Origin: the human T2T-CHM13v2.0 reference genome, Homo sapiens | Strand: one strand, 5' to 3' | DNA length: 64,000 nt | Assembly: GCF_009914755.1 (NCBI RefSeq) | Contig: NC_060947.1 | Part shown: in pieces, positions 3,084-49,313 of the stretch | Layout of the letters: each line of letters opens with the position of its first letter | Position numbering within the stretch: the first letter of the stretch is position 1 | Translations under genes and position numbers: made by a program | The notes under the pieces: model-generated | Databases searched by the model: none | What the model was told of the DNA's origin: nothing | The model's input: the letters and a program-made list of their open reading frames with translations, nothing else

Positions 3084-3223
3084 CCAATAACTATAACTAG
3101 TTCAATAACTACAACTAGTTCATCAAGTGAATGTAGATTTCCTCTTCAAGTTGTGTCTCTTCAAAATGAAAGAGTACCTGACAGTTTTGAATATTTTTCT
3201 CCAGGAAAGCTCAACACTCCAAG
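3084..3223 (+). pseudogene. Exon A (140 nt) of an unnamed degraded multi-exon gene: PITITSSITTTSSSSECRFPLQVVSLQNERVPDSFEYFSPGKLNTP
   Basis: Acceptor ttttgctttgcag|, donor AAG|gtaagc, open frame. The phase-2 end joins in frame to exon B. Confidence 0.7.
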
Positions 3224-3651
3224 GTAAGCCTCATTGATAATTGAGTCTACAAATCTTATCATGGAGTAAAATATACACATAGTTTACTTTTATTTTATAC
3301 TACATTTTAACATGATATTCAGCCTCCAGAATAATGATGTATTGATTGGATAAGGACAAGAAAATGGTATATTTGCAAGGAAGTAGCCTAGTCAGGCAAT
3401 TACTTTCAGATGTGCTGTAAAACAGTTAATGTGAGGCAAGATGTAAGTGAGTGTAAAATCTGTGTACACTGATAGTCTTCCAATTTGTTCACAGGAAGTT
3501 TAGTGTTTTATCTTGCTTTCTACAGCCTGAAATATAAAAATATGTACTATATAATGCTTTCCTAAAATAGGATTTTCAACAAAAAAAAGTGTTTGCTAAC
3601 ATTTGATGAATATTTAAACAAGTATTCATTCATGTTTGTCTTTTCTTTAAG

Positions 3652-5139
3652 TAATGAAGAAGCTGTTACTACGCAACAGGATGAAGGAAATGAATCTGAA
3701 ACAGAAGTTTCTCACACAAAAGGTTCTGAAATTTTATCTGGTTCTTTGGACTATAAAAGTCTCCAACATCTGACAATAATTAAAAGTCATAGTCCCCTTA
3801 TGGACTCTGACTCTGAAGGATGTGATTGATTCTGACTCTGATAGAGGCATTGGTTTGGACTCTGACTTAGAACAACACTTGAAAGACTCTGACTCGGTAA
3901 TATGGGGAATGGACTCAGAAAAACATACTAGAGACTCAGACTGTGAAACACCTGCTAGAAGCAGAAAACTACCAAATAGCTTCAGGCTATGCAGAAAACC
4001 CGATGAGAGTTGAACAGTGCCAGGTGGACTCTGACTCTCTGCAACACTGGATGGACTTTGGTTCAGTAAAAATGCTTGGTAGATTCTGACTCTGAAAAAT
4101 ATCTGTATTCTGACAATGAAAGACTGGGGATAGACTCAGACTCTGAAAAATGCCCCATGGCCTCTGCATCTGTGAAACACTTGCTGAAGACAGAGAAATG
4201 CCAAATGGCCTCAGATTCTGTAAAACACCTGATGGACTCTGAAAAAATATTGACTGAGACTGAAAAACTCTGGATGGTCTCTGCTTCTTAGAGGTATCTG
4301 ATGGACTCAGACACAGAGATGGGTGAAACGGTCTCAGCCTCTTTACCTGGGGTACATCTGATGGAGGAAGAAAAATACCAGGAGAAGGCTAGATCTAAAA
4401 GATATATGATGGACTTTAGCTCTGAACCATGTGGGATGGACTTAGATTCAGGAAGATATGGGCTAGGCTTAGCAGCTTTCAAATTTCTCATGAATGCTAA
4501 TACATTCCATTTGAGGACTGACACTGAAGGGCTCTGGATGAATTATGGGTCTGAAAGACGTACAATGGACTCACACTCTGAAAGCCTGGGGATGAGCTCT
4601 GATTCTGGAAAACACATGATAAAGTCTGAAAATTGCCAAAGAACCTCTGAATTGGAAAGATGCTGGACAAGACTCAAGTCTGAATCTGAAAGATATCAGA
4701 TGGACTCTAATAAAATACAGTCAGATTTTGACTATGGTAGATTCTGGGATTGTTCTATAACATAGCAGCATAGGTCTGCAAGACTTTTGAATAGCTCTGG
4801 AAGATATCAGGATGGCCCTCTAAAATATTTGGAAAACTTTGAAAGACATCATGTAGACTCTAATTCTAAAAACACACAAATTCTAAAAAATTAAAGACAA
4901 CAACATTGAGTTTGAAAGTGAAAGACACCTGATGAGGATGCAGAGGGAACAGTGTCTGACACAATTTGCAAATGAGAGACGTCAAATGGATGAAGAGAAG
5001 GAAAATCATCTTATGGAGTCTGACAGTGAAAATGAACACAGAATTGCATTTGACTCTGAACCAGGGGAAAGATATCACCTTGACTCAGAATATGAAGGAA
5101 AATGCCTTGGTGTTCATAGAAAGGATAATCATCCTCAAG
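3652..5139 (+). pseudogene. Exon B (~1.49 kb), Asp/Ser/Glu-rich xDSDSE repeat domain with stops and frameshifts
   Basis: Acceptor ttttctttaag|, donor CAAG|gtaagc. Chained ORFs 3593-3829, 3822-4013, 4076-4291, 4301-4765 and 4932-5192 all carry (M/I/L)DSDSE-like motifs. In-frame TAG at 4289 and 4763. Confidence 0.8.
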
Positions 5140-8100
5140 GTAAGCTTACATGTGTGGTCTTTGAAAGCAGTTTGATTTACAAGTTTAATTAGAAATATTA
5201 TGACACTTCCAAAATGTCAGTAGCTTTGACAAATTTGGGCCTAAGATCATTTTATCAGAAATTCAGAGAATGGGCATCTTAATCCCAGATTTCCAATTTA
5301 CCTTTAAAAATTAGGAAATTATCTTGCTTTAGTTAAATTTTATCTCCTCAAAAGGGGGAAAATTAATTCTTAGCAAAGATGGTTATTCTGGCCTAAGAAA
5401 CACAATGATGAATTTAGCTCTCATCATTCTGGAATGGGTGAATACAGATTGCCCATAAACTTTTTCTCATTATTAGTTACTGTGGAAACAGGTAAATATC
5501 CAAGCCTAACTCTAAAAAGTTTCAAATTATCTTGCTTCTCTCAAAAAGTTACTATCCAAGCTCCATAATTTTTGATAAATAGTTGGCATTTACCTTGCTG
5601 GTCATTTTTATTTTATTACACACAGACTACATTTTCTAATTGAGAATGTTGCTATAACTCAAAGCACCAAAAGAAAACCAAGAACTTTAACCCAAACATT
5701 CCTAAGAAATCTTCCCTCTGAAATTATAACAATGAATTCTGTGCCTCAATAAACCCCTGTGATTCATTTCAAAAACAGAACATTTAAAATAAAATATATT
5801 TAATGTATGATCAATGTTCTCTGTTTTAATACACTATTTCCACATAATGAGCCTTGAAATTTGTTTTAAGTAACACTGACTCATCCATGAGATCATATAT
5901 CTTAAATATGGTGGGCTATTGAATCCTATGAAAATAAAATATACTATATGTGTTCGGGCATTTACCCATACAAAGTGTTATCCAGAGGTTGCACTGGTTG
6001 TTAGACAAGTTATTTTCTCCTGAGCTGAATACCTGTGAAATATTTTAGTTTAACAGTCAGAGGAAAACAGTCATCTGATTTTTCATATTCTCTGAGAATA
6101 ACTCTCTGACCTCTAGTTAGAAATAAAATTATATTTGAAAGGATTAGTAATGTGAGAAAATAATTTCTGAGATCCTCTTATGAGGCAGCTTATTGGTGGA
6201 GTAGTGATAAAGGTCTGTTGTCTTTTATGAGGAGAAAGAAAATAATATTAAAACAAGTTTTCATTGGATTTGGACTTAGTAACACTAAATTAATTCTCCC
6301 CAATCCAATATTATTCTACATGAAGGGTATAAAGATTGGGTATATAAAACAATATATATATAACAATATATATAAAAGGGTATATAAAAACAAGCATCCA
6401 GCTTGTTTTTAATATTTTTAAACACCATCTGATAAATATTCAGTGAAATGGAATAACTACTGCTCAGGGCTAGAAAGACTCATGGGACCCAATGGCATTG
6501 CTGTTGATGTGCTTTATAAAATGTTGTCAATTGAATGCCTACTATGTGCTCAACATATAATAAATACATAAAAGAAAAATACCTTAAATTTATTTAGCAT
6601 CTTTCAACCTTTCAAAATCCATTATTTAAAATTAATCTGCTTGCTCTAGCTAGGACTTCTAGTATTATGTTGAATAGTAGTGGTGACAATGGGCATCCTT
6701 GTGATGTTCCAGATCTTAGGAAAAGGCTTTCAGTTTTTTCCCATTCAGTATGATACCTGCTTCAGGACTGTTGTATATGACTTTTATTAGTTTGAGGTAT
6801 GTTCCTTCTATACCCAGTTCTTTGAAGATTTTTATCATGAATGGATGTTGAATTTTATCAAATTTTTTTTTGGCATCAATTGAAATGATCGTTTTTAAAT
6901 TTTTATTCTGTTGATATGGTGTATCATTGATTTTAATGTATTGTCACATTCAGTTTGCTAGTATTTTGTTGAGAATTTTGCAAAAAATATTCATCAAAGA
7001 TATTGGCCTGTCATTCTCTTTTATTTTGATGTGTCTTTTTCTGTTTTTGGTATCAGGGTAATAATGGTCTTGTAAAATGAGTTTGGAAGTATTTCCTCCT
7101 CCTCTATTTTTTGGAATAGTTTTTGTGGGATTGTTATTAGTTCTTTAAATGTTTGACAAAAATGAGCAGTGAAGCCATTAGGTCCTGAGCTTTTCTTTAC
7201 TGAGAGAGGTTTATTACAGCTTCAACCTTGTTACTTGTTATTGGTCTGTTTAGGTTTTGGATTTCTTCCTGGTTAAATTTTGATAGGCTGTATCTAGAAA
7301 TGCGTTCATTTCTTCTAGATTTTTCAATATTGGCATATAGTTAGTTGCTCACAGTAGCCACTAATGATTATTTGAATTTCTATATTATCAGATGTAATGT
7401 CTCCTTTTGCATTTCTAATTTTATTTATTTGTATCTTCTCTCTTTTTTCTTAGTCTGGCTAAAGGTTTGTCAATTTTGTTTAACTTTTTTTAAAAAACAA
7501 CTTTTTGTTTTCTTGATCTTTTGTATTTTTTTCATTTCAATTTTATCCATTGATGCTCTGATCTATATTTTTTTTCTTCCACTAATGTTAGGTTTGGTTT
7601 TCTCTTGCCTTCTAAATCTTTAAGATGCATCATTAGATTGTTTCTTTGGAGTTTTTCTCTTTTTTTATATATAGGCATATATAGCTATAAACTTTCATCT
7701 TAGTACTGCTTTTTCTGTATCTCATAGGTTTTGGTATCTCATGTTTTCATTATGATTTATTATCAGAAATTTTTCAATTTCCTTTTTGTTTTCTTCATTG
7801 GTCATTCAGGAGAATAGTGTTTTCTTGTTTCTTATTTTATTTTTTTCATTCCTTTATTTATTTATTTTTTATTTTTGTGGGTAGATAGTAGGTGTATATG
7901 TTTAATTGCCATGTGTCTGTGTAGTTTCCAAAATTCCTCCTGTTACTGATTTCTACTTTTATTCTATTGTGGCTTGGAAAGATGCCTAGTATTATTTCCA
8001 ATTTTTGTGAATGTCATAACACTTCTTTGGTGACCTGACCTAACATATGTTCCATCCTTGAGAATAGTCCATGTGCTGAGGAAAAGAATGTTTATTCGGC

Positions 8101-8763
8101 AGCTGTTGGATGAAATGGCCTATAAATATCTATTAGATCCGCTTGGTCTATGGTGCAGATTAAGTCCAATGTTTCTTTGTTGATTTTGTGTCTGGAAGAT
8201 CTGTCCAATGTTGAAAGTGTGATGTTAAAATATGCAGCTATTATTGTATTGGGGCCTGTCTCTCTCTTTAGCTCTAATATTTCCTTTACATATCTGGGTG
8301 CTCCATTATTGGGTGCATATATATTTAAATTGTTGTATTTTCTGGTTGAATTGACTTATCATTATATAGAGACCTTCTTTTGTCTCTTCTTATGTTTTTT
8401 GGTTTTGAAATCTATTTTGTCTGATATAAGTGTAGTGATTTCTGCTCTTTTTTTGGTGACCATTGGCATTGGAATATCTTTTTCCATCCCTTTATTTTCA
8501 GTTATGTGTCTTTATAGGTGAAGTATGTTTCTTGTTGGTATACTTCTTGTTTTTTTATCTATTCAGCCAGTCTGTTTCTTTTGATTGGAGAGTTTAGTCC
8601 ATTTATATTCAATGCTACTATTGATAAGTAAAGACTTACTCCTGCCATATTGTTATTTGTTTTATTTTTGTTTTATAATCTTCTCTTCCTTCCTTTATTC
8701 CTTGTCTTCCTTTAATGTAGGATATTTTCTTTAGTGATAGGATTTAATGTCTTTCTTTTTGGG

Positions 8764-8774
<11 letters not shown>

Positions 8775-8820
<46 letters not shown>
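8775..8820. repeat. (GT)n microsatellite inside L1
   Basis: Long GT run. Confidence 0.95.
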
Positions 8821-8822
<2 letters not shown>

Positions 8823-9883
8823 CTTCAGCACTTTAAAATGTCATGCCCCTCTCTCCTGGCCTGTAAGGTTTTCACCGAAATGTCTGCTGCCAGATGTATT
8901 GAAGCTTCCTTGTATATTATTTGTTTCTTTTCTCTTGCTGTTTTTAGGATCCTTTCTTTACCCTTGGCTCTTTGGATTTTGATTATTGAATGCCTTGAGG
9001 TAGCCTTCTTTGTTTTAAGTCTGCTTGGCATTCTGTAATTTTATTGTACTTGAATATTAATATCTTATTCTAGATTTGAAAAATTCTCTATTATTGTCCC
9101 ATTGAATAAATTTTCTACTCCTATCTCTTTCTCTATCTCCTCCTTAAGGCCAGTAACTTTTAGATTTGCACTTTTTAGGCTATTTTCTAGAACTTGTATG
9201 TGTGCTTTATTGTTTTTTATTCTTTTTTCTTCTGTTTTTTTTTCTGACTGTATATTTTTAAGTAGCCTGTCTTCAAGCTCACTAATTCCTTCTTCTGCTT
9301 GATCAATTCTGCTTTTGTAGGGTTCTGATGCATTCTGCACTATGCCAATTGCATTTTTCAGCTCCAGATTTTTTTCTTGATGCTATTTAATTATTTCAAT
9401 CTCTTTGTTAAATTTATCTGATAGAGTTCTAAATTTATTCTCTGTGTTATCTTGAATTTATTTGAGTTTCCTCAAAAAAACTATTTTGAATTCTCATCTG
9501 AAAGGTCACATATCTCTATTTCCTCAGGATTGTTCACTGGTGGCTTACTTAGTTCATTTAGTGAGGTCATGTTTGCATGGATATTGTTGAGGCTAGCAGA
9601 TGTTCTTTGGTGTCTGAGCATTGAAGAGTTTGATATTTATTTTAGTCCTTGCTATTTGGGCTTGCTTGTTGTAGTCCTTTTTGGGAAGATTTTTCAGATA
9701 TTTGAAAGGACTTGCATGTTGTGATACAATCTGTACTTGCTTTGGGGACACCTCAGCCCTAGTAACACTGTGATTCTTGCAGACTTGTAGAGGTACTGCC
9801 TTAATGCAGTATCTGGGCAAATTCTCTGGATTACCAGGCAGAAACTTTTGTTTTCTTCTCTTACTTTCTCCCAAATATACAGA

Positions 9884-9884
9884 A

Positions 9885-9930
<46 letters not shown>
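9884..9930. repeat. (CT)n microsatellite inside L1 5' UTR
   Basis: Long CT run. Confidence 0.95.
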
Positions 9931-9932
<2 letters not shown>

Positions 9933-12639
9933 GAGACACCTGAAGCTGCAGTTGGAGTGACACAAGTATCCCTGTGGCCATCACCACTATGATTGTGCTG
10001 GTTCAGACTTTAAGCCAGTAGAGCACTGTGCCTCATCCAAGACATGCTATAACCACTCCTTGGATACTGCCTATGTCACTCAAGGCCCTGATGCTCTGTA
10101 ATCAGCAGATGACAAGGCCAGCCAGACCTGTGGCCTTCCATTCACAGTGGCAAGTTCCCCCAGGCCCTGGATATGTCCAGAGATGCCCTCTGGAACTCAA
10201 GAGACCAGAGTAATAAACCTTAGAAGTCTACCTGGTGTTCACTGAAACCACAAGATGCAGTCATTCTCACTCTTTTCTCCCTTTTCCAAAGGCAGAGGAT
10301 CACCCTGTAGCCCCTGCTTGCACAGGTCACAGTGTGGGGTACTGCCAGACTACTGCAGATGTTCTCTTCAGGGCCAAGGGCTCTTCAGTCAGCTTATAGT
10401 AAATGCTACCTGGCCTGGGAGTCCCTCTTCAGGGCAATGGGCTCACCTCTGGCCCAGGGAAAGTTCAGAAATTCCATCCAGATGTCAAGTCCTGGAATTG
10501 GGGACTCCAAGAGCTCACTTGCTTCTCTACTTCCCTGTGGCTGTGCTGGTACCTAAGGTGCAAGACAAAGTCCCCTTCACTTTTGTGTTTGCTTATCTCA
10601 AGCGGAAGTTTCACCTCATAGCCACCTCTGCCAGTAATTACCTGAAGCCAACAAGTCTCAGAGGCTCACCCAGGACCCTCAACGTAGTACCTTGTTATCT
10701 CTGCTGGTTATTTGGGGCCCAAGGGCTCTTCAGTTAGCAGTTGATGTAGGTTGCCAGGACCGAATTATTTCCTTCAAAGCAGAGGGTCATTTTCTGGCCT
10801 TTGATGTGTTTAGAAATGTTGTCTGTGAGCTATGGCCTGAAACGGGGGTCTCATGACTCTGAACAGTGACCTGTCCTGTGGCTGAGCTTAAATCTTAGAT
10901 GTAAGACAGAGTCCTCCTGAAGAGATGGAAAATTCTTCCCTCTTCTCTCCTCAAGCAGAAAGAAAGGGTCTCTTTTGGAGCTGTGAGCTGTGCATCCTGG
11001 GGTTAGGGGAAGGATGATGCCATCACTCCCTCTGCTGCCCCAGCTTGTGTCTCAGTAGGTTTCATGCCCCACCAGTCCACTGTCTCTGGGGCCAGTTCAG
11101 CACTAGGAGTCACTTGAAAGTTGCAGTCCTTTTGGTCTAGACTGCCTTTCATGTTTATTTAGAGATACAAAGCACTGTAGCCTGGGGTGGCAAGGTTTGC
11201 AGGAGCTCAAGTTTCAACCACTGGGATCACTAATTCCCCTTTGGCTAGGGCTGTTTTATCTACTGCCTTTGTGGGCAGGCATCAGCTGAATGTGGTCCAG
11301 TTTTCCTTTCTGCTCTAGCATTACAGTACTGAGTTTGTTGCCTCACAACTGCTGTACTTTCTCTCCCGCAGCACTCGGAGATGCTTTCTGCACCATGCCA
11401 CTGCTGCAGCTGCCAGTGGTAGGGGGAAATGTGTGGCGACGGCGATTCAAGACTTTTTCTACCTCTTCAGTGCTTGTTTCAGTGAAGTTAACACCAGGTA
11501 CTGTAAGGGCTCAACTGATTTTTGTTTCTTATGAAGGATTTTTGTTTGTGTAGATAGTTGATAAACAGGTATCTTTGCAGGGGATATGATCGGTGGAGCA
11601 CTCTATTCTGCCATCTTGGTCAACTCATCTTGGTTTTGATTTGCTTTTATCTGATGATTACTGATGTGAAGCATTTTTTTTTCATTTTTGTTGACTACTC
11701 TTAAGTCTTGTTTTTGAGAAGTGTCTGCTCATCTCTTTCACCCATTTTTAATGGGATTATTTGAGTTTTGCTTGTATAATTGTTTCAGTTTCTTTTACAT
11801 TCTGGATATTAGATCTTTGTCAAATGCATTGTTTGGAAATATTTTATCCCATTCTGTAGGTTTTTTACTCTGTTGATAGTTTCTTTTGCTGTGCAGAAGC
11901 ACTTCAGTTTAATTTGGTCCCACTTGTCAATTTCTGATTTTCTTGCAATTGCTTTTGATGACTTAGTAATAAATTCTTTTTCAAGACCAATCTCCAGAAG
12001 GGTGTTTCCTAGGTTTTCTTCTAGGATTCTTATTGGTTGAGGTGTTACATTTAAATTTTTAATCCATGTTTAGTTAATTTTTGCATACGGTGAAATGTAG
12101 GGGTCTAGTTTTATTCTTCTACATATGGCTAGCCAGGTATCCCAGCAATATTTATTGAATAGGGAGTACTTTCCCCATTATTTATTATCGTCAACTTTGC
12201 CAAGATTACATAGCTGTAGGTGTGCAGCTTTATTTTGGGGTTCTTTTTTTCCCCCTTTGGACTATGTGTCTGTTTTAGTACCGATACCCTGCTGTGTTGT
12301 TTACTGTATCCTTATGGTATAGTTTGAAGTTGGGTAATGTGATGCCTCTGGCTTCATTCCTTTTGCTTAGAATTGCTTTGGCTATTTGGGTCTTTATTGC
12401 TTCCACATGAATTTTAAAATTGTTTTTCTATAAAAAATGACATTGATAGTTTGATTGGAATAGCATTGAATCTGTAGATTACTTTGAGCTGTATCGGCAT
12501 TTTAACAAAACTGACTCTTCTTATTTATGAGCATGGAATGTTTTGCCATTTGTTTGTTTCATCTATAATTTCTTTCAGCAGCAGTGTTTTGTAGCTCTCC
12601 TTGTAGAGATCTTTCACCTCCTCAGTTAGATGTATTCCT

Positions 12640-12962
12640 GTTTTTTTGTTTGTTTGTTTGTTTTGGTTTGTTTTATTTTGTTGAGACGGAGTCTCACTCT
12701 GTGGCCCAAACTGGAGTTCAGTGGCATGATCTTGGCTCACTGCAAACTCTGCCTCCTGGGCTCAAATGATTCTCATGCCTCAGCCTCCTGAGTAGCTGGG
12801 AATACAGGCCCACACCACCATGCCTGGCTAATTTTTTGTATTTTAGTAGATACGGGGTTTCACCATGTTTCCCAAGGTGGTCTCGAACTCCTGAGTTCAG
12901 GCAATCCACCTGCCTTGGCATCCCAAAGTGCTGGGATTACAGGCATGAGCCACCATGCCCGG
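12640..12962 (-). mobile_element. Alu (AluS/J) inserted in L1 with a 17-bp TSD
   Basis: Full Alu body. CAGTTAGATGTATTCCT is duplicated at 12623-12639 and 12963-12979. Confidence 0.95.
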
Positions 12963-15900
12963 CAGTTAGATGTATTCCTAGATATTTTATTTATTTGTGG
13001 CTATTGTAAATGGGATTGTGTTCCGTATTTGGCTTTTGGCTTGAATGTTACTGGTGTATAAAAATTCTACTGATTTTTATATGTTGATTTTGTATCCGGA
13101 AAGTCATTTGCCAGTTCCACAAGCCACTTGGTGGAGTCTTTAGGGTTTTCTAGGTAAAGAATCAATTCATCCATGAGGAGAGATAGCTTGACTTCTTCTT
13201 TTCTTATTGGGATGCCATTTATGCTTTTCTCTTGCCTGATTGCTTTGGCTAAGACTTCCAGTACTATGTTGAATAGGAGGAATGAGAGTGGGCTTCCTTG
13301 TCTTTTTCCATTTTCAAGGGAATGCTTCTGGTTTTTGCCTATTCAGTATGATGTTGGCTGTATGTTGGTCATAGATAGCTCTTATTATTTTGTAACATGT
13401 TCCTTTGATGTCCATGCTGTTGAGTGCCAAGGTTTTTTTTTATCATGAAGGGATATTGTATTTTATCAAAAGCTTTTTTTAATATGTTGAAATGATAATA
13501 TGGTTTTTGTTTTTAATTGTGTTTATGTAGTGAATTACATTTATTGATGTTCATATGTTGAACCAGTCTTGCATCCTAGAAATAAATTCTACTTGATTGT
13601 GCTGAATTAACTTTTTGATATGCTGCTAGATTTAGTTTGCTAGGATTTTATTGAGGATTTTTGTGTTTATGTTCATCAGATGTATTGGTCTGTAGTTTTC
13701 TTTTTTCATTGTGCCTTTGCTGGGTTTTAGTAAGAATGATGCTGGCCTCATAGAATGAGTTAGGGAAGAGTCCCTTCTCCTCAAATTTTTGGAATAGTTT
13801 CAATAGAATGGGTACCAAATCTTTGTTGTATGTCTGGTGTAATTCAGTTATGAATCCATCTGGTCCAGGGCTTTTTTTGGTTGGTAGGTTTTTCATTATT
13901 TATTCTATTTTGGGGCTCAATATTAATTTGATCAGCATTTTAATTTCTTCCTGATTTTATCTTGAGAGATTGTGTGTTTACAGGCATTTATCCATTTCCT
14001 CTAGGTTTTCTAATTTGTGTATGTGTTATCTCTGAGGTTCTTTTGTATTTCTGTGAGATTAATTGTAATGTCACCTTTGTTATTTTTGTATGTACTTATT
14101 TGAATCTTTTCTCTTTTTTTTTTTTTTTTGGTTAATGTAGCTAGTGGTCTATCAATCAATCTTGTTTTCCTTTCAAAAGTCTAACTTTTGGTTTCATTGA
14201 TTGTTTGGATTTTTGGGTCTCAATTTTATTCAGCTCTGCCCTGATTTTAGTTATTTCTTTACTTCTGCCAGCTTTCAGGTTAATTTGTTCCTGTTTTCCC
14301 AGTTCCCTTGTGTGTGATGTTAGACTGTTAATTTGAGATCTTTCTAACTTTTTAAGGTAAGCATTTAATAATATAAATTTTGTCTTGACATGGCTTTTGC
14401 TGCATCCTGAGATTTTGGTATATTGTGACTTTGTTTTTATTTATTTCAGAGATTTATTTATGAATTAACTTTATGGTTAACCCAAAATCACTCAGGAGCA
14501 AGTTGTTTAATTTCTATGTAATCTTGGGGTATATTCTGTGTACAGAAGAGAGGAATGTAAATTATGTAGTAGATGGGTGGAGTAATCTGTAGATGTCTAT
14601 TAGTTTCAATTGGCCAAGTGTCACATTTAATTCCAGAATTTATTTGTTAGTATTCTGCTTTAATGATCTGTCTAATGTTTACAGTGGGGTGTTGAAGTCT
14701 CCCACTATTATCAGGTGGCTGTCTCAGTCTCTTTATAGGTCTAGAAGTACTTCTTTTTGTGAATCCCAGTGCTCCAATGTTGGGTTCATCTATATTTAGG
14801 ATAGTTAACTCTTCTTGTTGAATTGAACCATTTATCATCATGTAATGCTCTTCTTTTTCCTTTTTTACTATTGCTGGTTTAAAGTCTGTTTTATCTAAGT
14901 ATAATGATAACCTCTGCTGTATTTTGTTCTGCATTTGCAATATGACTCTTCAACCCTTTACCTTGGGCCTATGGATTTTGTTACAAGTGAGATGGTTCTC
15001 TTGAAGACAGTAAATTAATGGGTCTTGATTTTTCTTATCCAGATTGCCACTCTGTGCTTTTTAAGTGAGACATTTAGACCATTTACATTCAAGGTTATTA
15101 TTAATATGTGAGGTTTTGTAGCTAGTTCCTCTGTAGTTTCTATTGTGTGGTTGCTTTATAGTGTCTGTGGGCTATGTAATTAGGAGTGTTTTGTGGTGAC
15201 AGGTATTGTTATTTTGTTTCTATTTTAGAACTCTCAAGGATCTCTTGTATGGCTTGTGTAGTGGTTACAAATTCCCTTAGCACTTGATTGTCTGAAAAAT
15301 ATTTTATATCTCCTTCATTTATGAACTTGAGTTTGGTGGGATAAAAAATTATTGGTTGGAATTTCTTTTCTTTAAAGATACTGAATATAGGCCTCCAATC
15401 TCTCCTGGCTTGTAAGGATTTTGCTGAGAAGTCTTCTGTTAGCCTGTTGAGGCTCCCTCCGTATGTCATCTGACCTTTTTCTACAGCTGCCTTTAAGATT
15501 TCTTCTTTAGCATATATCTTGGACAGTCTGATGACTATATGCCTTAGTGATGTTCATTTTATATAGTACCATGCAGGTGTTCTCTGTATTTCTTGAATCT
15601 GGATGTCTACCTCTCTAGCAAGATTATGGAAATTTTCTTGAATGACTCTAATATGTTTTCCAGGTTGTTTGCTTGTTTTCCTCTCTCAGGAAGGCCAATA
15701 ATTCCTAAATTTAGTCATATTACATAATCCCATATTTCTTGGAAACTTTGTTCATTTGTAACAATTATTTTTTCTTTATTTTTCTGACTGGGTTAGTTCA
15801 AAAGACCAGTCTTCAAGTTCTGAAAGTCTTTTTTCTGTTTGGTGCAGCCTACTGATAAAGCTTCCCATTGTATTTTGAAATTCCTTATGTGAAGGTTTCA

Positions 15901-18725: not shown

Positions 18726-19087
<362 letters not shown>

Positions 19088-31960: not shown

Positions 31961-32248
<288 letters not shown>

Positions 32249-38033: not shown

Positions 38034-38551
38034 TGTATTAATTATCCATTGCCATATAACAAATTACTCCAAACTTAGTGGCTTAAAAAAATAAAGATTT
38101 ACTACCTCATAATTTCTGTGGATCATGGTAGCTTCTTAGGGTGGTTCTGGCTCCAGGGCCTCTCATGAGGTTGCAGTCAAACTGTCAGTTGGGGTTGAAT
38201 GGAGGAGGGTATGTTTCCATGTTTACTCATGTTGGGCCTTTTGGTAGTTGGCCTGAATGATTTCACCACATGACAGCTGATTTCCCTCTCCCTGAGGTTG
38301 TTTTACAACATAGTAGCTAGATTCCACAAGAGTACGTGATTTAAGAGAGAGTGAGAGACAGTACATTCAAGAAAGAAACTGCACTCTTTTTGTAACCCAA
38401 TCTAGGTGGGGCATACCATCATTTCTGCCACAATTTAGTCACTAGAAACTAGTCACTAATTCCAAGACGCTCTCAAGAGGAGGAAATTAAGTTGCACCCT
38501 TTAAAAGGAGGAGTATCAATAATTTGTGGACATACCTTTGAAATTACCACA
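38034..38551 (-). mobile_element. MLT1 (MaLR) LTR
   Basis: tgtatta..taacaaattactccaaacttagtggcttaaaa ... attaccaca. Confidence 0.75.
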
Positions 38552-40197
38552 AATAGTAAACCCAGCAAAATAGTAGATATTTCCAGAATAAAGATAAACC
38601 AACTGAAACTTTAGCAGCACATCTGGGCTGGCAAAAGAGATATCAAACAATTTGACCAATTGACATTTGTAGAACACTTTACTCAAGGACAGCAGAATAC
38701 ATATTCCTGTCTAGTACACATAGAAAATTTACCAAGATACCCCATATTCTAGGCCATAAGACATTTCTCAATAAATTTAAGAGGATTCAAGTCATATAAA
38801 GTATGTTCTCTGACCAGACTGGGATTAAATTAGAAAACAGTAACAGTAAGATTTCTGGAAACAAAAAATACCCATAGCTGTTCAGAAACTAAATAACATA
38901 CTTCTAAGTAACACACAGGTCAATTAAAACCCTCTGGGGAATTAGAAAGCATTTGGGCTGCATTAAAATGGAAATACAACTGATCAAAATGTGTCAAATT
39001 ATGCTAAAGCAGTATGTAGGGGAAAATTTATAGCACCAAACACATATATTGGAACAGAAGAAAGGCCTCAAATAATTGTCCTTTGCTTCCATATTAAGAA
39101 ATTAGAGAATAGAAATTAATGAAATAGATAACATAAAAACAATAGACAAAATCAATGGAAACAAAGTGGTTCTTCAAGAAGATCAATATCATTGATAGAA
39201 AAGATAGAAGGCCCCATATTACCAATACTAGCAAGAAGAGGCATGGCATCACTGCAGGCTCTATTAGATATTAAAAAGAAATGTTTGATGACTTACATGA
39301 AAAGGAAAAATTTCTTGAAAGATAAACTTCAAGAAAATCACTCAAGAAGAAATAGATAACCTGATTATTCCTAATTCAATGAAATGTAATTCATTGTACT
39401 AACAAAGACAAAAAGAAAGACTAAGTCATTATCTCAATAAAGACAAATGAAGCACTGTACAATATCCAAAATCTATTCTCAAAAAAAATGCTCAACAAAT
39501 TAAGAATGAGCTAACACACACACACACACAAACTAGCACTAAGATTATACTTAATGGTAAAAGACTGAATGCTTTCCCCCTAAGATCTGACGTAAGGCTA
39601 GAATTTTGCTCTCACAGTCTGTTATCAATATTTTGTTGGAGATTCTATTCAAGATAATAAGGCAAGAAAACTAGGTTATATTAGAAAAGTAGTGAAACTA
39701 TCTTAATTCACAGACATCATGAATGTCTGCATAGAAAATCTTATGGAATCTCCAACATAGTCTACCAGAACTAAGTGAGCTTGGTAACATTACAGGATAC
39801 AAAGTTGGTATACAAAAATCAATTGTATCTCCATCTGCTATCAATAAACAGTTTGAAATTAAAATTTCTAAAACATATCATTGGCAATAGGATTAAAAAC
39901 ACATGAAATGTGAGAAATAAATCTAACAAAAGACATACTAGATATGAAAAATAAAAGCTAAAAAAGATTTCTGAGATACATTAAACAAGAACAAAATAAA
40001 TAAACGCCCATGTTCATGCACAGGAAGTCTTGTTGTTAAGGTTTTCTTCATACTGATGTGTAGATTCAATGCACTTTTGATCAAAATCCAAGAAAATAAG
40101 TTGTTGTCCAAGATGTTGACAAACTATTTCTGAAATTTGTATGAGAATGCAAAGGACTTAAAATAATCAAAACAACTTTTAAAAAGAACAACACTCA

Positions 40198-40484
40198 GCC
40201 AGGCGCGGTGGCTCATGCCTGTAATCCCAGCACTTTGAGACGCCTAGATGGGCAGATCGCTTGAGCTCAGGAGGTCAAGACCAGCCTGGGCAACATTGCA
40301 AAACCCTGTCTTTACAAAAAATACAAAAAAATAGCGGAGCATGGTGGCACACATATGTATTACTAGCTACTGGGAGGCTGAGGTGGGAGGATCACCTGAG
40401 CCCAAGAGGTCAAGGCTGCAATGAGTGAAGATTGCACTACTGCATTCCATCCTGGGCAACAGAGTGAGATTCTGTCTCAAAAAA
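40198..40484 (+). mobile_element. Alu (AluJ-like)
   Basis: gccaggcgcggtggctcatgcctgtaatcccagc ... gtctcaaaaaa. Confidence 0.92.
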
Positions 40485-40499
40485 CACAAGAGAGTTCCC

Positions 40500-41560
40500 A
40501 CAGACACTGTGCCACCACACAGGCACAGCCTCCTCAGCTGTCAACAACCTGCACCAGAGTGCTACATTTGTTACAATCAATGAATCTATACTGACATATA
40601 ATTACAACCCCAAATCCATAATTTGCATTGAGGTACACTTTACAGGTTTTTAGAAATAAAAATGGCATATATCATATATTTTAGTATCACACAGAATAGT
40701 TTCATTCCCCCTAAAATTCCTCTATGTTCTACCTATTTATCTCTTCCTCTCCTCTTTTTCCTAGCAACCACTGATCCTTTCATTGTTTCCATAATTTTGC
40801 CTTTTCTAGAATGTCATGTGGTTGGAATCATACAGTAAATAGCCTTTCCAAAGTGGTGTCTTTCTTTCACTTAATAATATGCATTTAAGTTTTCGCCATG
40901 GTTTTTCATGGCTTGATAACTCAGTTCTTTTTATTACTGAATAATATTGCATTATGTAGATGTACCACAATTTATTTATACGTTCACCTACTGAAGGACA
41001 TTTTGGGTGCTTCCAAGTTTTTGCAATTGTGAATAAAGCTGCTATAAACATCTTTGTACAGGTATTTTTGTGTAGCCATATATTTCAGTTCATTTGGGTA
41101 AACATAAAAGAGCATAATTGCTGGATCATATGATTAAGAGAATATTTAGTTTTGTAAGAATGTCAATCTATCTTTCAAAGTGGCTGTATCATTTTGTATT
41201 CCCAACAGCAATGAAAGAGAGTTCCTATTGCTTCACATTCTTACCAACATTTAACATTGTCAATGTTTTGGATGTTGGCCATTCTAATGCATGCACAGTG
41301 GTATCTTATTGTTGTTTTAATTTGCAACTCCTTAATGACTTACGATGTTGAACATCTTTTCATATGCTTATTTGCCAAATTTATATATTCTTCGGTGTGA
41401 TGTCCGTTCAAGTCTTTTGCCCATTTTTTAATCAGATTGTTCATTCTATTACTGTTGTATTTTAAGAGTTCTTTGTGTATTTTAGATATCAGTCCTTCAT
41501 CAGATGTGTGTTTTGCAAATATTTTCTCTCAGTCTGTGGCTTATCTTCTCAGTCTCTTGA
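40500..41560 (-). mobile_element. L1MC/L1MD-type 3' end
   Basis: Minus-strand ORF 40806-41051 MFIAALFTIAKTWKHPKCPS is the ORF2 C-terminus, followed by an old 3' UTR. Confidence 0.8.
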
Positions 41561-41672
41561 AGACCCATCTTTTACCAAGGGGCAACATCAATTCAGTGAA
41601 AAAAAAAGTGTTTAAAAAAAATGATGCTGGTACCATTGGATGTCCAAATGTAAAACAAAAACAAAACAAACA

Positions 41673-44249
<2,577 letters not shown>

Positions 44250-44504
44250 AAAACAAAAACAAAACAAACAAAAGAAGAAACTTTAATTATATGCATTTCT
44301 TGCATTGTGTACAAAAATAACTGAGTTAGATCTAAATAACAAATTAGTATGATAATAAATATATAAATAATATATATTAATACATTACTATTTATTTAAT
44401 AAATCCTAAAACTAAAAAAATTGTTGATGAAAACAGAGCAGAAAAATTTTTGTGACCTTGGGTTAGGCAAAGATTTTTTTTGGATGCAAAAATAGAAGCA
44501 TTGT

Positions 44505-45382
44505 ATATTTTAATTAATTTTTATTTTTATTTCAATAGATTTGGGTATATAGGCGTTTTTGGTTACGTGGATAAGTTCTCTAGTAGCGATTTCTGAGATC
44601 TTAGTGAATCTGTCACCCGAACAGTTTACACTGTCCCCAGTATGTAGTCTTTTCTCCCTCACCCCCTCCCAACCGTCCCCATGAGTCTCCAAAATCCATT
44701 ATATCATTCTTATGCCTTTGCATCCTCATGGTTTAGCTCCTACAAGTGAAAACGTACGATGTTTGGTTTTATATTTCTTAGTTACTTCATTTAGAATAAT
44801 GGCCTCCAGTTCCATCCAAGTTGCTGCAAAATACATTATTTCATTCCTTTTTATGGCTGAGTAGTACTCAATGGTGTATGTATATCACATTTAATCCACT
44901 CATCAGTTAATGAGTTAATGAGCACTTAGATTGATTCCATATATTTGCAATTGTGAGTTGTGCCATGATAAACATATGCATGCAGGTGTCTTTTTGATAT
45001 AATGACGTCTCCTTTGAGTAGTTACCCAGTAGTGGGATTGCTGGATCAAATGGTATTTTATTTTCTTGCAGCTATTGTAAAAGTGATTGAGCTTTTGATT
45101 TATTCCCAGCTTGGTCATTGTTGGTGTAGAGCAGTGCTACTGATTTGTGTACATTGATTTTGTAACCTGAGACTTTACTGAATTCATTTATCAAATGTAA
45201 GAGTCTTTTGGAGGAGTGTTTAGGGTTTGTAGGTATACTGTCATATCATCAGCGAACAGCAATTACTTGACCATTTCTTTTCTAGTTTGGATGCCCAGTT
45301 TTTTCTTTCTCTTGCCTGAGTTTTCTGGCGAGGCCTTCCAGTACAATGTTGAGTAGAAGTGGTGAAAGTGGGCATCCTTGTT
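44505..45382 (-). mobile_element. L1PB-type 3' UTR joined to an internal ORF2 segment
   Basis: L1PB 3' end text to ~45056, then RT-region ORF2 text to 45382. Confidence 0.8.
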
Positions 45383-45971
45383 AAAGCTAAGATATTGATA
45401 AATATCATATCTAAATATCCAGAATCATGTGCCAGCAAGTTTTTAATAGCTATGGAAATTGATTCTTGCTATTAAATAAAATATCAAAAAGTTTTCCAAT
45501 TTTGACATATCAAGCCCAAGAATATTATTATCTTCAAACACAGAAATTTTATAAATTATAGCGATTATATTCCATGAAAGAAAAAAATGTAAGTATTACT
45601 AGAGGCAAAATTAACAAGTAATATAGCTCTGTAGTAACCAAGCTATGTAAAACAACCATTTTATTTTGGCCACGTTATTCCAATGAATTCCTATATAGTG
45701 AGTTCTCATCTTAAAAGGAAGATCTGTGAATCTGAAGAGTATAAACATATGAGATAAATGTACACATTTCATTTTTTTATGTTTTAGCAAGCTCAAGTTC
45801 ACACCTACTTGAGGAGAAAATTTAGGATCATGTCTTCCTCTTGAAATATCAGATAATACTGGCAATAACTTACTGAAGGAAATATTTTTTGGCACAGATT
45901 TATGTTGTAATGTCAGCGTCAAAGTCAGATTTCATTATAGTCTTACTTATATTTTACTTGTTTCTCTCCAG

Positions 45972-48918
45972 CATTTTTCATAATTCAACCTGTGAGGTAC
46001 CTCAGTGATTACAAAATTATGGGATTCAAAGAGGTGTCTCCAACTCTCAGAGACAAACAAGAATCACAGCAAAAGTTAAAGGAAAAATGCAGCAACAACC
46101 TTTCCCTAGACCGAAATACTTTCATAGATAACAAGCGTCACATAAATGAAAACCACAAAATTTATCTACATAAGAGCCACTATAAGGACTACAGATATAC
46201 ACATAATTTTCAGAGTTCTGGGTCTCAAATGAATCCTATTCATCTCCTAATTGCTGAGAGTTACAACTCTGGCATTCCACCCAAATTCTGTAAGCCCTAG
46301 GTCTGCTGTACACTCCAAGACTCATAAAAATAACACATATTCTTTGGACATGGGAGCTCAAATATGTCCCAAATGTTTGATGGAAATCAGTAATTCTCTT
46401 TTTCATATATGCCTCATAAATTCTAATGATGATTCAGACCCTGACTATCCTTTACATCTCCAATTTCCCTTAGATTGAAAATATTATCTGAACCCAAATC
46501 TGTTAGACACTGCAAGACTTCTCAAAATAGCCCCTTTTCTCGGTCCCTGGATCCTAAGTCTCCTGTGGGCAACCACTGTCCTCTACACCAGGAAGATTCT
46601 AAATATTCCTTAGGTTCAACTTCTTATTTACATTGTGAAAGTTGCTCAGCTTTCCAAAATCTCTTAGGCTTTACTATTATCTGTACCTTTTTCATGAAAC
46701 CCCAAAATACCATGAGCTGCCATAGTACCCCTGGCCCAGGCAATGTCATCAACCCCAGCAACATTTCTGGTCTTAAAAGTGGCGGAAAGTACAATGTAAC
46801 TTTCAAACCCCAAAATGAGGCCAATCCTAAAAATAAGACTTAACTGATCGGTGCTGGCAATCTCAAAGATAAGACCAATGCCAAAGACAAGTCTTTTCCC
46901 AAAGATTAGTTAGACCATGAGAATAAGACAGAATCTGAAGATGAGACAGATGCTGAAGATGAAACAGACACTGAAGATAAAGACAACAACAAAGATAAGA
47001 AAGATCCCAAAGATAGGTCTGATACTAATGACACTAATCCTAAAGATAGCAATGCTGAAAATTATGTTGATACCAACAATGGTTCTGATCCCAGTGGTGA
47101 TGCTGGCTCTGCAAGTGGTGATAATTCCAACAGTGATAGTGACCCTAATAATGGAACTGACCCCAGCAGTAAAACTGACCCTAACATTTGATATGTCACT
47201 AACAATGATGCAAACTCCAAATATAGCACTGATCCTGAGGAAAACAAATACATCAACAATTCAGACAATGCTTCTGGCTTAGACAATAGTGTTGATAAGG
47301 AAAGTACTGCTGACTCCAACAATGGCACTAATCCAAATCACACCTCTGGGTCCCTAAATAGAACTGGCCAGGACCACACATCTGATTCCAACAATGATGA
47401 CAGCCCTAGCAATGCCACTGAGCCAGGCAATGACATTTTCCACAACAGTGTCCCTGACTCCAAAAATATTAAAAATGGGTCCTAAGAGCCACAGCCCGAG
47501 CAACAATGGCACTGGCCTCAACAACAATTGCCTTGGCCCCAACAATAGCCCTGGCCCCCTAAAAGACCTTGAATCTAAATATAATGCCAGGCTCAATAAT
47601 ACTACTACTCACAACACTGCTATCTGTTCTAATAATGATATCGACCCCAATTACAGTACAGAACTCATTAGTGCTGCTGGATACAACTATGCAGCTGCCC
47701 CAAACTATGACACAGACCTTGACTATGTCCTAGGATTTACCCACACAGTGGATTCTAGCTTTGTAGTTCACCCAAACTATATTGCTAGAAACAGTTTTAT
47801 GTCACCAGCCCTAGCTTTTCAACTAGTGCAGTCAATGCAACTGACATCAACACCACCACTGGTTGTAGTCATGCTATTAGTCCTAGCTATATTGCAGGTG
47901 TCAACTGTGCCTCAGACACAAACTATGTCCTTAGATTTACTCATTTCATTGTCTAACTTTGTCAATGATGGCTCTAACTTTGTCATCAACCCCAATTATA
48001 TGTCATAAATACTCATAAAGCTCATAATTCCACTATTACCATCAATATTAATTTTCCAGAGCCTGAATTAAAAATCCATTCCAGTTTCTCTATTCCTAAT
48101 ATTGTTTATAGAAATTCCCCCAACTTTTGCTGTTGGCACTAACTATACTTCCACTCCTGATAATTTGACCATCTCTAAATTTTCTGATCCATATAAGCTT
48201 GGTAGAAATTATACAATTTTTAATGACCACAAATTTGGTGCTCACTTCAAAGTCTCTGCTGACTGCATGGACTCTGCTAGCTTTAAGCATATCACTGACT
48301 CCAAAGATGTCCTAGATGCCAAGTAGTCTAACTTTTTAACAGATTTCTCTAGGGTCCAGAATCCCATTGGTATCAAGAATCCTGCTAGTTTATAGTTAGA
48401 GCAGTCGTCGGCCAACCTCCCCAACAGCACTTGGGTTTTCCTGTTGAGAGGGGGTACTGAGAGACAGGACTAGCTGGATTTCCTAGGCAGACTAAGAATC
48501 CCTAAGCCTAGCTGGGAAGGTGACCACGTCCACCTTTAAATATGGGGCTTGCAACTTAGCTCACACCCGACCAATCAGGTAGTAAAGAGAGCTCACTACA
48601 ATGCTAAGTAGGCAAAAACAGGGGTAAAGAAATAGCCAATCATCTATCGCCTGAGAGCAGAGCAGGAGGGACAATGATCGGGATATAAACCCAGGTATTC
48701 AAGCCAGCAACAGCTACCCTCTTTGGGTCTCCTCCCTTTGTACGGGAGCTCTGTTTTCACTCTATTAAATCTTGCAACTGAAAAAAAAATCCTGCTAGTT
48801 TAAACTTCCGTGACAATCCAAATATTCCACTCCCTAGTGTTGATATTATAGTAGAAGCTGAACCACCAGATGTTGTGAAGTTTGCCATACCATCAGGTGC
48901 TGTGAATCAGTTTTTAAG
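45972..48918 (+). pseudogene. Exon C (~2.5 kb without the insertion), Asn/Asp/Pro/Thr-rich repeat domain; degraded and interrupted by HERV-W
   Basis: Acceptor ttgtttctctccag|, donor TTAAG|gtaagt. Phase-1 start matches the exon B donor. Stops at 46841, 46907, 47189 and 48324, plus frameshifts. Ends ...DIIVEAEPPDVVKFAIPSGAVNQFL. Confidence 0.78.
48393..48787 (+). mobile_element. 5'-truncated HERV-W processed pseudogene (pre-LTR 3' internal sequence, LTR17 U3-R, poly-A)
   Basis: LTR17 start TGAGAGACAGGACTAGCTGGATTTCCTAGG at 48458. Ends ATTAAATCTTGCAACTG plus an A-run with no U5. 15-bp TSD AATCCTGCTAGTTTA at 48378-48392 and 48788-48802. Confidence 0.93.
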
Positions 48919-49279
48919 GTAAGTTTATATAAGTGTAGATTTTAAATTTCTTCTCATTTCCTATAATTCAGAGTATTAGGTCATTGAACAGAATCTAAAA
49001 CTTCCTTTTTCACTTGGATATATAAGCTATGGAAGAGAGGTAGCAGGATATTCAGTATTACTTCTCCTTTGACCTTTAAAGCCAGCAACATGGTTTTCCA
49101 TTTGAAATATCTATCTGCTGTACAGCTGGCGAGTGGCAAAATGGTCTTGGTTTCTCTGTGGCTGGCTGGTTTTCTACTCTATCAAGGGTTGCATAGTTCA
49201 TAAATGTAAACTTAGCCATAATCTATTGACCTACTTCCTCTTGTCCATACATGGCCTAGTGTTAGTACTTTCCTTCTAG

Positions 49280-49313
49280 GTGCAGAGAGAGAATAAAGCC
49301 AAATGAGCGTTAA
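49280..49313 (+). pseudogene. Candidate terminal coding exon D (R-CRERIKPNER-stop)
   Basis: Acceptor tactttccttctag|. Joining to the phase-2 end of exon C gives 11 codons then TAA. Short, so weak evidence. Confidence 0.4.

What the first reader, a model, noticed from the sequence alone, without database searches (positions are those of the whole stretch)
3084..49313. Unnamed dead multi-exon gene (candidate unitary pseudogene) for a ~1400-aa repeat protein, split by a 41-kb transposon-filled intron
Seen: non-repeat islands bounded by canonical AG/GT sites with consistent phases. A (3084-3223) ends AG and B begins T, giving Ser-Asn-Glu-Glu. B (3652-5139) ends G and C begins CA, giving Ala-Phe-Phe-Ile-Ile-Gln-Pro-Val-Arg, across a 40.8-kb intron. 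C (45972-48918) ends AG and possibly joins D at 49280. The summed length without the HERV-W insertion is ~4.2 kb. Many stops and frameshifts show it is inactive here, and the introns show it is not a retrocopy. Inference: a lost mammalian gene for a large, intrinsically disordered, acidic repeat protein. Giant repeat exons like these are typical of fast-evolving germline, sperm or secreted-matrix proteins. I do not recognise the gene.
Basis: partly seen in the sequence, partly recalled or inferred. Interest (0 to 1): 0.85.

Follow-up and report, generated by a model that had tools for sequence, protein, structure and literature searches.

The report
TEX16P: known dead testis gene
This is the already named and published human pseudogene TEX16P, the wreck of a testis gene that other mammals still have, and it appears to be only the middle of a much larger dead gene of the CNK signalling-scaffold family.

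Summary
The exon islands are real. A (3084-3223), B (3652-5139) and C (45972-48918) have AG/GT borders and compatible phases. Against the intact mouse-lemur model they carry 11 frameshifts, 8 stops and a 397-bp retroelement insertion. The gene is not unnamed. It is TEX16P in RefSeq, and Zhang et al. 2010 list it as a human unitary pseudogene. Relatives named Tex16 match it, and no human paralogue exists.

Three corrections:
- Exon D at 49280 has no orthologue support. The real 3' exons lie at 54014-54077, 54792-54874 and about 56764-56799.
- A conserved exon of 30-32 codons between B and C cannot be found in human.
- 17 of 58 orthologue models add N-terminal SAM and/or CRIC domains, and several add a C-terminal PH domain.

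Collinear broken remnants lie 68 kb upstream and 187-264 kb downstream on the X. TEX16P is therefore probably the middle cassette of a dead CNK-family gene of at least 333 kb. One CRIC exon survives only on chromosome 12.

The finding is already known. The CNK link is in databases, not in the papers searched.

The parts
3084..3223 (+). Exon A. It has no lesion and holds an 18-bp tandem duplication at 3085-3122. The next recognisable exon upstream lies OUTSIDE the window: a 42-nt micro-exon at chrX 83073587-83073628 (window -68414 to -68373). It encodes SDLSHEMESDMIDV and has a perfect AG acceptor and GTAAGT donor.
   Evidence: Exon A: (29/43 identical to lemur residues 172-214). Micro-exon: all 10 of 10 orthologue N-termini hit it; sequence read; profile i-E 3.9e-5 in 264 kb.
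3652..5139 (+). Exon B, with degenerate DSDSE[KR] repeats. It has 4 frameshifts (near 3824, 3942, 4069, 4907) and 3 stops (4289 TAG, 4763 TAG, 4892 TAA).
5140..45971 (+). The 40.8-kb interval between B and C. It holds retroelement remnants, and the conserved middle exon (30-32 codons) cannot be found in it.
   Evidence: SETP4 from the hub table.
45972..48918 (+). Exon C. It has 7 frameshifts, 5 stops (46476 TGA, 46841 TAA, 46907 TAG, 47189 TGA, 48324 TAG) and a probable 1-bp loss just before the donor.
48393..48789 (+). Retroelement insertion inside exon C. It is a 5'-truncated LTR-bearing piece ending in A9, flanked by the direct repeat (AA)TCCTGCTAGTTTA. Its features fit an L1-mobilised HERV-W processed pseudogene.
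   Evidence: 798 first-look candidates; 39 of 39 scored non-self copies are 91-94% identical. The published definition was read. The family name itself is not tool-verified.
54014..54077 (+). Downstream alternative exon d1 (64 nt, MKMTCKVNCFHQKNNQIFKIE), AG/GT flanked.
   Evidence: lemur tail, 62.5% over 24 aa, E 1.6e-7.
54792..54874 (+). Downstream exon d2, read in two frames by different orthologue isoforms. The frame used after d1 has a TAA in human.
   Evidence: Bos tail 56% over 25 aa, E 6e-7; lemur 59% over 22 aa, E 2e-4.
56764..56799 (+). Remnant of the terminal exon d3 of the short isoform (LQTGSRQSLGPD*). No clear acceptor is left. Further remnants of the same unit lie OUTSIDE the window, on the + strand. 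PH-domain exons are at chrX 83328774-83328914 and 83334244-83334306 (window +186774 to +192306). C-terminal exons are at chrX 83389792-836, 83391269-380, 83401611-83402980 and 83405770-83406285 (window +247792 to +264285), with stops, frameshifts and an Alu-like insertion.
   Evidence: d3: (elephant tail 9/11 identical, E 4e-4). Outside remnants: (PH exons 51-60% and 76-86% identical to the orthologue models that matched; last exon 57% to lemur over residues 255-421).

Best explanation
The finding is TEX16P, the human unitary pseudogene of the X-linked, male-germ-cell gene Tex16. It makes no protein. Its three large exons are riddled with frameshifts and stops and one is split by a retroelement.

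The exons in the window are probably not a whole gene. In mammals that keep the gene, they form an alternatively included cassette of very large exons that encode disordered, acidic sequence. That cassette sits inside a bigger gene of the CNK (connector enhancer of KSR) scaffold family: SAM and CRIC domains at the N-terminus, then the TEX16 cassette, then either short alternative ends or a long C-terminus with an IPCEF1-like PH domain.

The whole unit, at least 333 kb in human, decayed together, probably in the anthropoid or haplorhine stem.

Shown here: the identity with TEX16, the lesions, the absence of a paralogue, and the collinear broken CNK-like exon remnants.
Inferred: that all parts were one transcription unit, the date of loss, and a scaffold role in spermatogonia or early meiosis.
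For: Identity and prior publication:
- Zhang et al. 2010 list Tex16 as a human unitary pseudogene on chrX (passages).
- A 2026 paper places T2T chrX 83,190,233 (window 48,233) in TEX16P (passage).
- Of 58 homologues, 4 are named Tex16 or testis expressed gene 16.

Lesions and absence of a paralogue:
- The lesions were counted.
- There is no paralogue: three pieces give self-hits only.

Larger gene, from orthologue models:
- 17 of 58 homologues carry precomputed SAM and/or CRIC domains. This was re-scanned.
- In Peromyscus, locus LOC102912650 gives isoform X1 (SAM-CRIC-TEX16, 1632 aa) and a second 953-aa isoform (labelled X2 or X3, SAM-CRIC-PH) that skips the cassette.
- 7 of 40 models join exon C directly to the CNK-like tail. 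Dipodomys does so too.
- UniProt 'Testis expressed gene 16' entries of rat, Mus spicilegus, Nannospalax and Jaculus are the PH/C-terminal part.
- The best solved relatives are the IPCEF1 PH domain (E 6.5e-27) and CNKSR2 SAM-CRIC (E 8e-19).
- Margolin et al. 2014 report a putative unannotated mouse Tex16 TSS about 200 kb upstream of the annotated 5' end (passage).

Human remnants:
- They lie on the same strand and in protein order, from -68 kb to +264 kb.
Against: - The long orthologue proteins are automatic gene models, and one is flagged LOW QUALITY. Many models start inside exon B, so an internal promoter or a nested gene is possible.
- In human, no SAM exon and only one CRIC exon were found, and that CRIC exon is on chr12, not the X. 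The human 5' evidence therefore rests on a 14-codon micro-exon.
- No PDZ or CNK2_3 domain is present in 36 of 36 models. The one hit elsewhere, in Dipodomys, lies in a Lys/Glu-rich stretch and may be spurious.
- The date of loss was not established here. Figure 5 and the supplements of Zhang 2010 could not be seen (closed).
- Low pLDDT may partly reflect a shallow alignment of 36 sequences.
Confidence: 0.8

Rival explanations
1. TEX16 is a separate gene with its own promoter, nested in the same orientation inside an intron of a CNK-like gene. On this reading the fused SAM-CRIC-TEX16(-PH) proteins are read-through or gene-prediction artefacts. Human then lost two genes, not one.
For: Many orthologue models start with a Met inside exon B, for example P0024, P0026 and P0044. 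SAM-CRIC-PH isoforms skip every TEX16 exon. TEX16 has its own alternative terminal exons at 54.0-56.8 kb.
Against: Exon A opens directly at its acceptor, with no start of its own, and continues the upstream reading frame in the orthologues. 17 of 58 models from several pipelines join the parts. A mouse TSS about 200 kb upstream has been reported.
Confidence: 0.15
2. One reading: an unnamed, previously unrecognised lost gene made only of exons A-B-C-D, encoding a repeat protein of about 1400 aa.
For: The islands, their phases and the lesions are real. The TEX16 part is about 1394 aa in the lemur.
Against: The gene is named TEX16P and was published in 2010. Exon D has no orthologue match. A conserved middle exon and three other 3' exons exist. 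SAM, CRIC and PH domains are attached in orthologues.
Confidence: 0.03
3. A duplicated pseudogene whose intact parent still works elsewhere in the human genome.
For: The flanking domains have distant paralogues. One was confirmed as CNKSR2. The chr6 and chr1 loci are read as CNKSR3/IPCEF1 and CNKSR1 from recalled map positions.
Against: Three TEX16 pieces hit only themselves in the 3.1-Gb T2T genome. The paralogues are only 30-46% identical in the SAM and PH exons and have nothing like exons A-C.
Confidence: 0.01

Closest known systems
TEX16P / mouse Tex16 (testis expressed gene 16)
   Same: It is the same locus and the same gene. RefSeq names 4232-48910 TEX16P. Homologues named Tex16 match at E down to 1e-235. 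It is listed as a unitary pseudogene. The mouse gene is described as premeiotic and repressed later (passage).
   Different: RefSeq's span misses exon A, the first 580 bp of exon B, three 3' exons at 54-57 kb and all the CNK-like remnants outside the window.
CNKSR2 (connector enhancer of kinase suppressor of Ras 2) and Drosophila CNK
   Same: Orthologue models have N-terminal SAM then CRIC in the same order. A solved CNKSR2 chain aligns over residues 11-221 at E 8e-19. Some orthologues are named CNKSR2-like.
   Different: There is no PDZ and no CNK2_3 domain. The TEX16 cassette of about 1400 aa sits where these would be. The human SAM exon of CNKSR2 is only 43% identical.
IPCEF1 / CNKSR3 C-terminal half
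   Same: The PH domain is closest to the solved IPCEF1 PH domain (E 6.5e-27). A chr6 locus matches at 43% identity. Reading that locus as IPCEF1/CNKSR3 is from recall.
   Different: The C-terminal tail after the PH domain matches mainly its own orthologues. The only other human match is a weak one (32% identity) at chrX 21.19 Mb, read as CNKSR2 from recall.
Other human testis unitary pseudogenes (TEX21, TCAM1, TSSK5, CYCT)
   Same: Zhang et al. 2010 list them together as testis-specific genes lost in human relative to mouse.
   Different: They were not examined here.

Membership tests
TEX16 orthologue group | Significant, collinear protein similarity to proteins named Tex16, across both large exons | tested here: met
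   The Tupaia, lemur, dog and other models cover B and C in order at 41-81% identity per piece.
Unitary pseudogene | Disabled reading frame | tested here: met
   11 frameshifts and 8 stops; retroelement insertion.
Unitary pseudogene | No functional paralogue in the same genome | tested here: met
   self-hits only for three pieces.
Unitary pseudogene | Intact orthologue in other species at the syntenic place | tested here: inconclusive
   Intact predicted proteins exist in many mammals. Synteny could not be tested because no other mammalian genome is held. HDX is named as the human neighbour.
CNK (connector enhancer of KSR) family | N-terminal SAM domain | tested here: met
   Met in the orthologue models. 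No human remnant was found.
CNK (connector enhancer of KSR) family | CRIC domain after the SAM domain | tested here: met
   Met in the orthologue models. In human only one CRIC exon is found, on chr12.
CNK (connector enhancer of KSR) family | PDZ domain | tested here: not met
   No PDZ hit in 36 of 36 aligned models at E 0.1 or less, nor in the 16 long models scanned.
CNK (connector enhancer of KSR) family | PH domain in the C-terminal half | tested here: met
   Met in the orthologue models. Broken human PH exons lie at chrX 83.33 Mb.
HERV-W processed pseudogene (the insertion in exon C) | U3-R 3' LTR without U5, a poly(A) tail, and a target-site duplication of 5-15 bp | tested here: inconclusive
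The poly(A) tail and a duplication of 13-15 bp were seen. It is a dispersed family at 91-94% identity. The definition was read.

The most novel reading that the evidence does not exclude
TEX16 is not a stand-alone gene. It is an alternatively spliced cassette of giant exons, encoding disordered sequence, inside a fourth mammalian CNK-family scaffold gene (SAM-CRIC ... PH). Humans lost the whole unit of at least 333 kb. Its 5' SAM/CRIC exons have vanished from the human X, and one CRIC exon survives only as an isolated, splice-site-flanked fossil on chromosome 12. The Tex16-CNK link was found in none of the papers searched. It exists only as automatic gene models.
Probability: 0.6. Interest if true: 0.4.

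Novelty: already known. Interest (0 to 1): 0.25.

Why it matters

The useful additions concern annotation and evolution.
- The human TEX16P record covers only part of the dead gene.
- What humans lost was probably a germ-cell CNK-type signalling scaffold with an optional 1400-aa disordered insert, not merely a repeat protein.
- This bears on how mouse Tex16 results should be read. The classic 1139-aa protein (length from recall) would be a partial product.
- It also adds one more testis signalling gene to those missing in humans.

Tried and rejected
- Pfam on 11 window ORF pieces gave nothing above threshold. The TEX16 part has no Pfam family in 36 of 36 orthologues.
- The middle exon was sought by tblastn with short-query settings and by a 35-sequence profile over six frames of the window. 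Best i-E was 1, so it was not found.
- SAM and CRIC exons were sought three ways: with dog, lemur and squirrel N-termini over the whole genome; by tblastn over the 200 kb upstream plus the window; and by a 19-sequence profile over the same stretch. Only exon A, the micro-exon and the chr12 exon appeared.
- The first exon of the CNK-like tail (LLxxY..., Arg-rich) was not found in window 48919-64000.
- The CNK2_3_dom hit in Dipodomys was rejected as idiosyncratic, because 0 of 36 other models match it.
- The chr12 fragment was checked for a poly(A) tail after the exon as a sign of transduction. None was seen. Its DNA is unique in the genome, and its origin stays unexplained.
- A rough age from the stop-codon load gives d = 0.05-0.07 substitutions per site (95% CI 0.02-0.14). 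That is tens of millions of years and too loose to place on the primate tree.
- The structure prediction gave no confident domain, so no fold search was run.
Full report
**Observation**

The three islands are as described.
- Exon A (3084-3223), exon B (3652-5139) and exon C (45972-48918) each follow an AG and precede a GT.
- The A>B junction reads Ser-Asn-Glu-Glu.
- B ends with one base and C starts with two, so the phases fit.
- Stop-to-stop ORF lists show the coding sense broken over all three frames.

I aligned each island to the intact mouse-lemur model P0019 with a frameshift-aware dynamic programme.

| Island | Identity to lemur | Frameshifts | Stops |
|---|---|---|---|
| A | 29/43 | 0 | 0 |
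| B | 322/481 | 4 (near 3824, 3942, 4069, 4907) | 3 (4289, 4763, 4892) |
| C before the insertion | 516/774 | 7 | 5 (46476, 46841, 46907, 47189, 48324) |
| C after the insertion | 35/42 | 0 | 0 |

The insertion in C (48393-48789) ends in nine A's. It is flanked by a direct repeat of 13-15 bp. It belongs to a dispersed family: 798 first-look candidates, and 39 of 39 scored non-self copies are 91-94% identical. These features fit the published definition of L1-mobilised HERV-W processed pseudogenes: a U3-R LTR, poly(A), and a duplication of 5-15 bp. One HERV-W subgroup is dated mostly 25-35 Myr ago and the other about 8 Myr earlier (Grandi et al. 2016, passages).

The B-C interval holds:
- an ERV provirus remnant (gag p30, protease, RNase H-like domains and integrase on the + strand, 26.2-29.6 kb);
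- an L1 ORF1 piece;
- SETP4, according to the hub table.

**What it is**

The gene is not unnamed.
- RefSeq calls 4232-48910 TEX16P.
- Zhang et al. 2010 (Genome Biol 11:R26; passages and section 9 read) list Tex16 on chrX among human unitary pseudogenes. They name it among five testis genes lost relative to mouse.
- A 2026 paper places T2T chrX 83,190,233, which is window 48,233 in exon C, in 'TEX16P (pseudogene)'.
- Another paper lists HDX and TEX16P as neighbours.

The protein searches agree.
- A 109-aa piece of exon C found 4 mammalian proteins.
- A profile of those found 58 at E 0.001 or less, among 8000 candidates scored.
- Four of the 58 are named Tex16 or testis expressed gene 16: Apodemus speciosus, Nannospalax, Phodopus and Cricetulus.
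- Single proteins (Tupaia, lemur, dog, rhinoceros, cow, rabbit, hamster) cover B and C in order.
- Three human pieces, searched over the 3.1-Gb T2T genome, hit only themselves.

So it is a unitary pseudogene and not a duplicate. The only named primate among the hits is Microcebus murinus, in 1 of 58 and 1 of 46. Absence of predicted proteins in haplorhines is weak evidence, but it agrees with an old loss.

1. Exon A is real. It is 74-75% identical to lemur and rhinoceros over 27-28 aa, with a profile i-E of 1.5e-7. RefSeq's span omits it and the first 580 bp of B.
2. Between B and C, 35 orthologues have a conserved exon of 30-32 codons (FWRP...EEQHSVQQIDNKVS). Neither tblastn nor a profile finds it anywhere in the window. 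The direct B>C junction is phase-compatible but not ancestral.
3. Exon D at 49280 has no orthologue match.
4. Orthologues end exon C in phase 0 (...FFK|). Ten models read through the donor as VSLYKCR.. or a close variant, exactly as the human intron would read. The human 'AG' end therefore looks like a 1-bp loss (inference).
5. The real downstream exons in the window are these:
   - d1 at 54014-54077;
   - d2 at 54792-54874, which is read in two frames depending on whether the 64-nt d1 is included, and the d1-dependent frame carries a TAA in human;
   - a terminal remnant at about 56764-56799 (LQTGSRQSLGPD*).

**The larger gene**

Of the 58 homologues, 17 carry precomputed SAM and/or CRIC domains.
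- My own scans place SAM at about residues 15-77 and CRIC at about 103-185, ahead of the TEX16 part.
- They place a PH domain at 1841-1935 of a 2415-aa hamster model and at 1871-1960 of an Arvicanthis model.

A search with the hamster C-terminus found 46 proteins.
- Six are named connector enhancer of kinase suppressor of ras 2 (or 2-like).
- Four are UniProt 'Testis expressed gene 16' entries (rat, Mus spicilegus, Nannospalax, Jaculus). These are the PH/C-terminal part.

Further evidence that the parts are joined:
- In Peromyscus one locus, LOC102912650, gives two isoforms. Isoform X1 is SAM-CRIC-TEX16 (1632 aa). A second 953-aa isoform, labelled X2 or X3, is SAM-CRIC-PH and splices ...RVQV directly to the LLDNY... 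exon, skipping the whole cassette.
- Seven of 40 models join exon C directly to that same CNK-like tail. Dipodomys does so as well.
- The closest solved relatives are the IPCEF1 PH domain (E 6.5e-27) and CNKSR2 SAM-CRIC (E 8e-19).
- Margolin et al. 2014 note a putative unannotated mouse Tex16 TSS about 200 kb upstream of the annotated 5' end (passage).

No PDZ or CNK2_3 domain is present in 0 of 36 aligned models at E 0.1 or less. One Dipodomys hit lies in a Lys/Glu-rich stretch and was discounted. The gene therefore works like, and is related to, CNK scaffolds, but it lacks one defining domain.

**Human remnants outside the window**

Upstream:
- In the 200 kb upstream that I fetched, all 10 of 10 orthologue N-termini hit one place. 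It is a 42-nt micro-exon at chrX 83073587-83073628 (window -68414 to -68373).
- It encodes SDLSHEMESDMIDV and has a polypyrimidine tract, an AG acceptor and a GTAAGT donor.

Downstream, on the same strand and in protein order:
- PH exons at 83328774-914 and 83334244-306;
- further exons at 83389792-836 and 83391269-380, with a frameshift;
- a large last exon at 83401611-83402980 and 83405770-83406285, with several stops, frameshifts and an Alu-like insertion.

The dead unit thus spans at least chrX 83,073,587-83,406,285, about 333 kb.

The same searches hit three paralogue loci at 30-46% identity:
- chrX 21.0-21.2 Mb, confirmed as CNKSR2 by a PDB match of E 4e-31;
- chr6 155.4-155.7 Mb, read as CNKSR3/IPCEF1 from my recall of map positions;
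- chr1 26.0 Mb, read as CNKSR1, also from recall.

**What is missing, and an oddity**

No SAM exon of this gene was found on the X or anywhere else in the genome. Nor were the first or third CRIC exons, or the exon after the micro-exon.

The middle CRIC exon (HNILTAALKLINMVKMILNILER) is 22 of 23 identical to dog. It exists only on chromosome 12 (T2T 50,694,279-50,694,353, minus strand). It is flanked by ...ttaag and gtaat.... Its DNA is unique in the genome. I found no poly(A) after the exon that would explain how it got there. This stays unexplained.

**Nature of the encoded part**

- The lemur TEX16 part (residues 172-1565) has 15.6% Asp+Glu, 11.9% Ser and 8.2% Asn, with pI 5.0. It has scattered DSDSE[KR] motifs in exon B.
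- There is no DNA-level tandem array apart from an 18-bp duplication in exon A.
- AlphaFold2 on a 1175-aa squirrel orthologue with 36 aligned sequences gave mean pLDDT 34.7, no residue at 70 or more, and almost no secondary structure. The caveat is that the alignment is shallow.

**Age**

Eight stops over 1379 aligned codons imply 0.05-0.07 neutral substitutions per site since constraint was lost (95% CI 0.02-0.14). That means tens of millions of years. It is compatible with an intact lemur gene and with the catarrhine-age insertion, but it is too loose to place on the tree. Zhang et al. dated their pseudogenes in a figure and in supplements that I could not see.

**Mechanism and verdict**

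In human the locus encodes nothing. I did not test whether it is still transcribed.

In other mammals the most likely product is a male-germ-cell CNK-type scaffold whose isoforms include or skip a disordered insert of about 1400 aa. Mouse papers describe Tex16 as expressed premeiotically and silenced by meiotic sex-chromosome inactivation (passages).

The finding as written is already known. The added value is a corrected exon map and the CNK connection. No paper in the searched library makes that connection: 0 papers hold Tex16 with CNKSR2, 0 hold Tex16 with 'cnk', and 0 hold 'CNKSR2-like'. It is visible in automatic gene models.

Noticed in passing
L006/L028 (T2T chr12 50,694,279-50,694,353, minus strand): An isolated 69-nt exon encodes HNILTAALKLINMVKMILNILER, 22 of 23 identical to the CRIC exon of the dog TEX16/CNK-like gene. 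It has splice-like flanks, is unique in the human genome and sits among old repeats. The X chromosome has no copy. How it reached chr12 is unexplained.
   Followed up: partly
window 26234-29641, + strand: A remnant of a gammaretrovirus-like endogenous provirus lies in the B-C intron. Broken ORFs match Gag_p30, RVP, RT_RNaseH, RNase_H and rve. It was described only.
   Followed up: partly
window 15212-15553, - strand: An L1 ORF1 fragment (Tnp_22_dsRBD, E 3e-28).
   Followed up: no
window 3085-3122: An 18-bp tandem duplication (2.1 copies, 95% matches) inside exon A adds ITITSS. It is absent from the lemur and rhinoceros proteins.
   Followed up: partly
window 54792-54874: One exon is used in two reading frames by different orthologue isoforms, depending on inclusion of the 64-nt exon at 54014-54077. 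Cow and deer-mouse models read WK.CFL...; lemur and bat models read ..DMFS.NF.SK...
   Followed up: partly
outside the window, chrX 83402290-83402600 and 83402980-83405770: The last large exon of the CNK-like part is interrupted by an Alu-like poly-T insertion. A gap of about 2.8 kb also separates adjacent lemur residues, which probably marks another insertion.
   Followed up: no
T2T chr11 114.61-114.64 Mb: Dozens of weak tandem matches to the Gly/Val/Pro-rich repeat near the C-terminus of the lemur protein P0083. This looks like a repetitive array and is probably unrelated.
   Followed up: no
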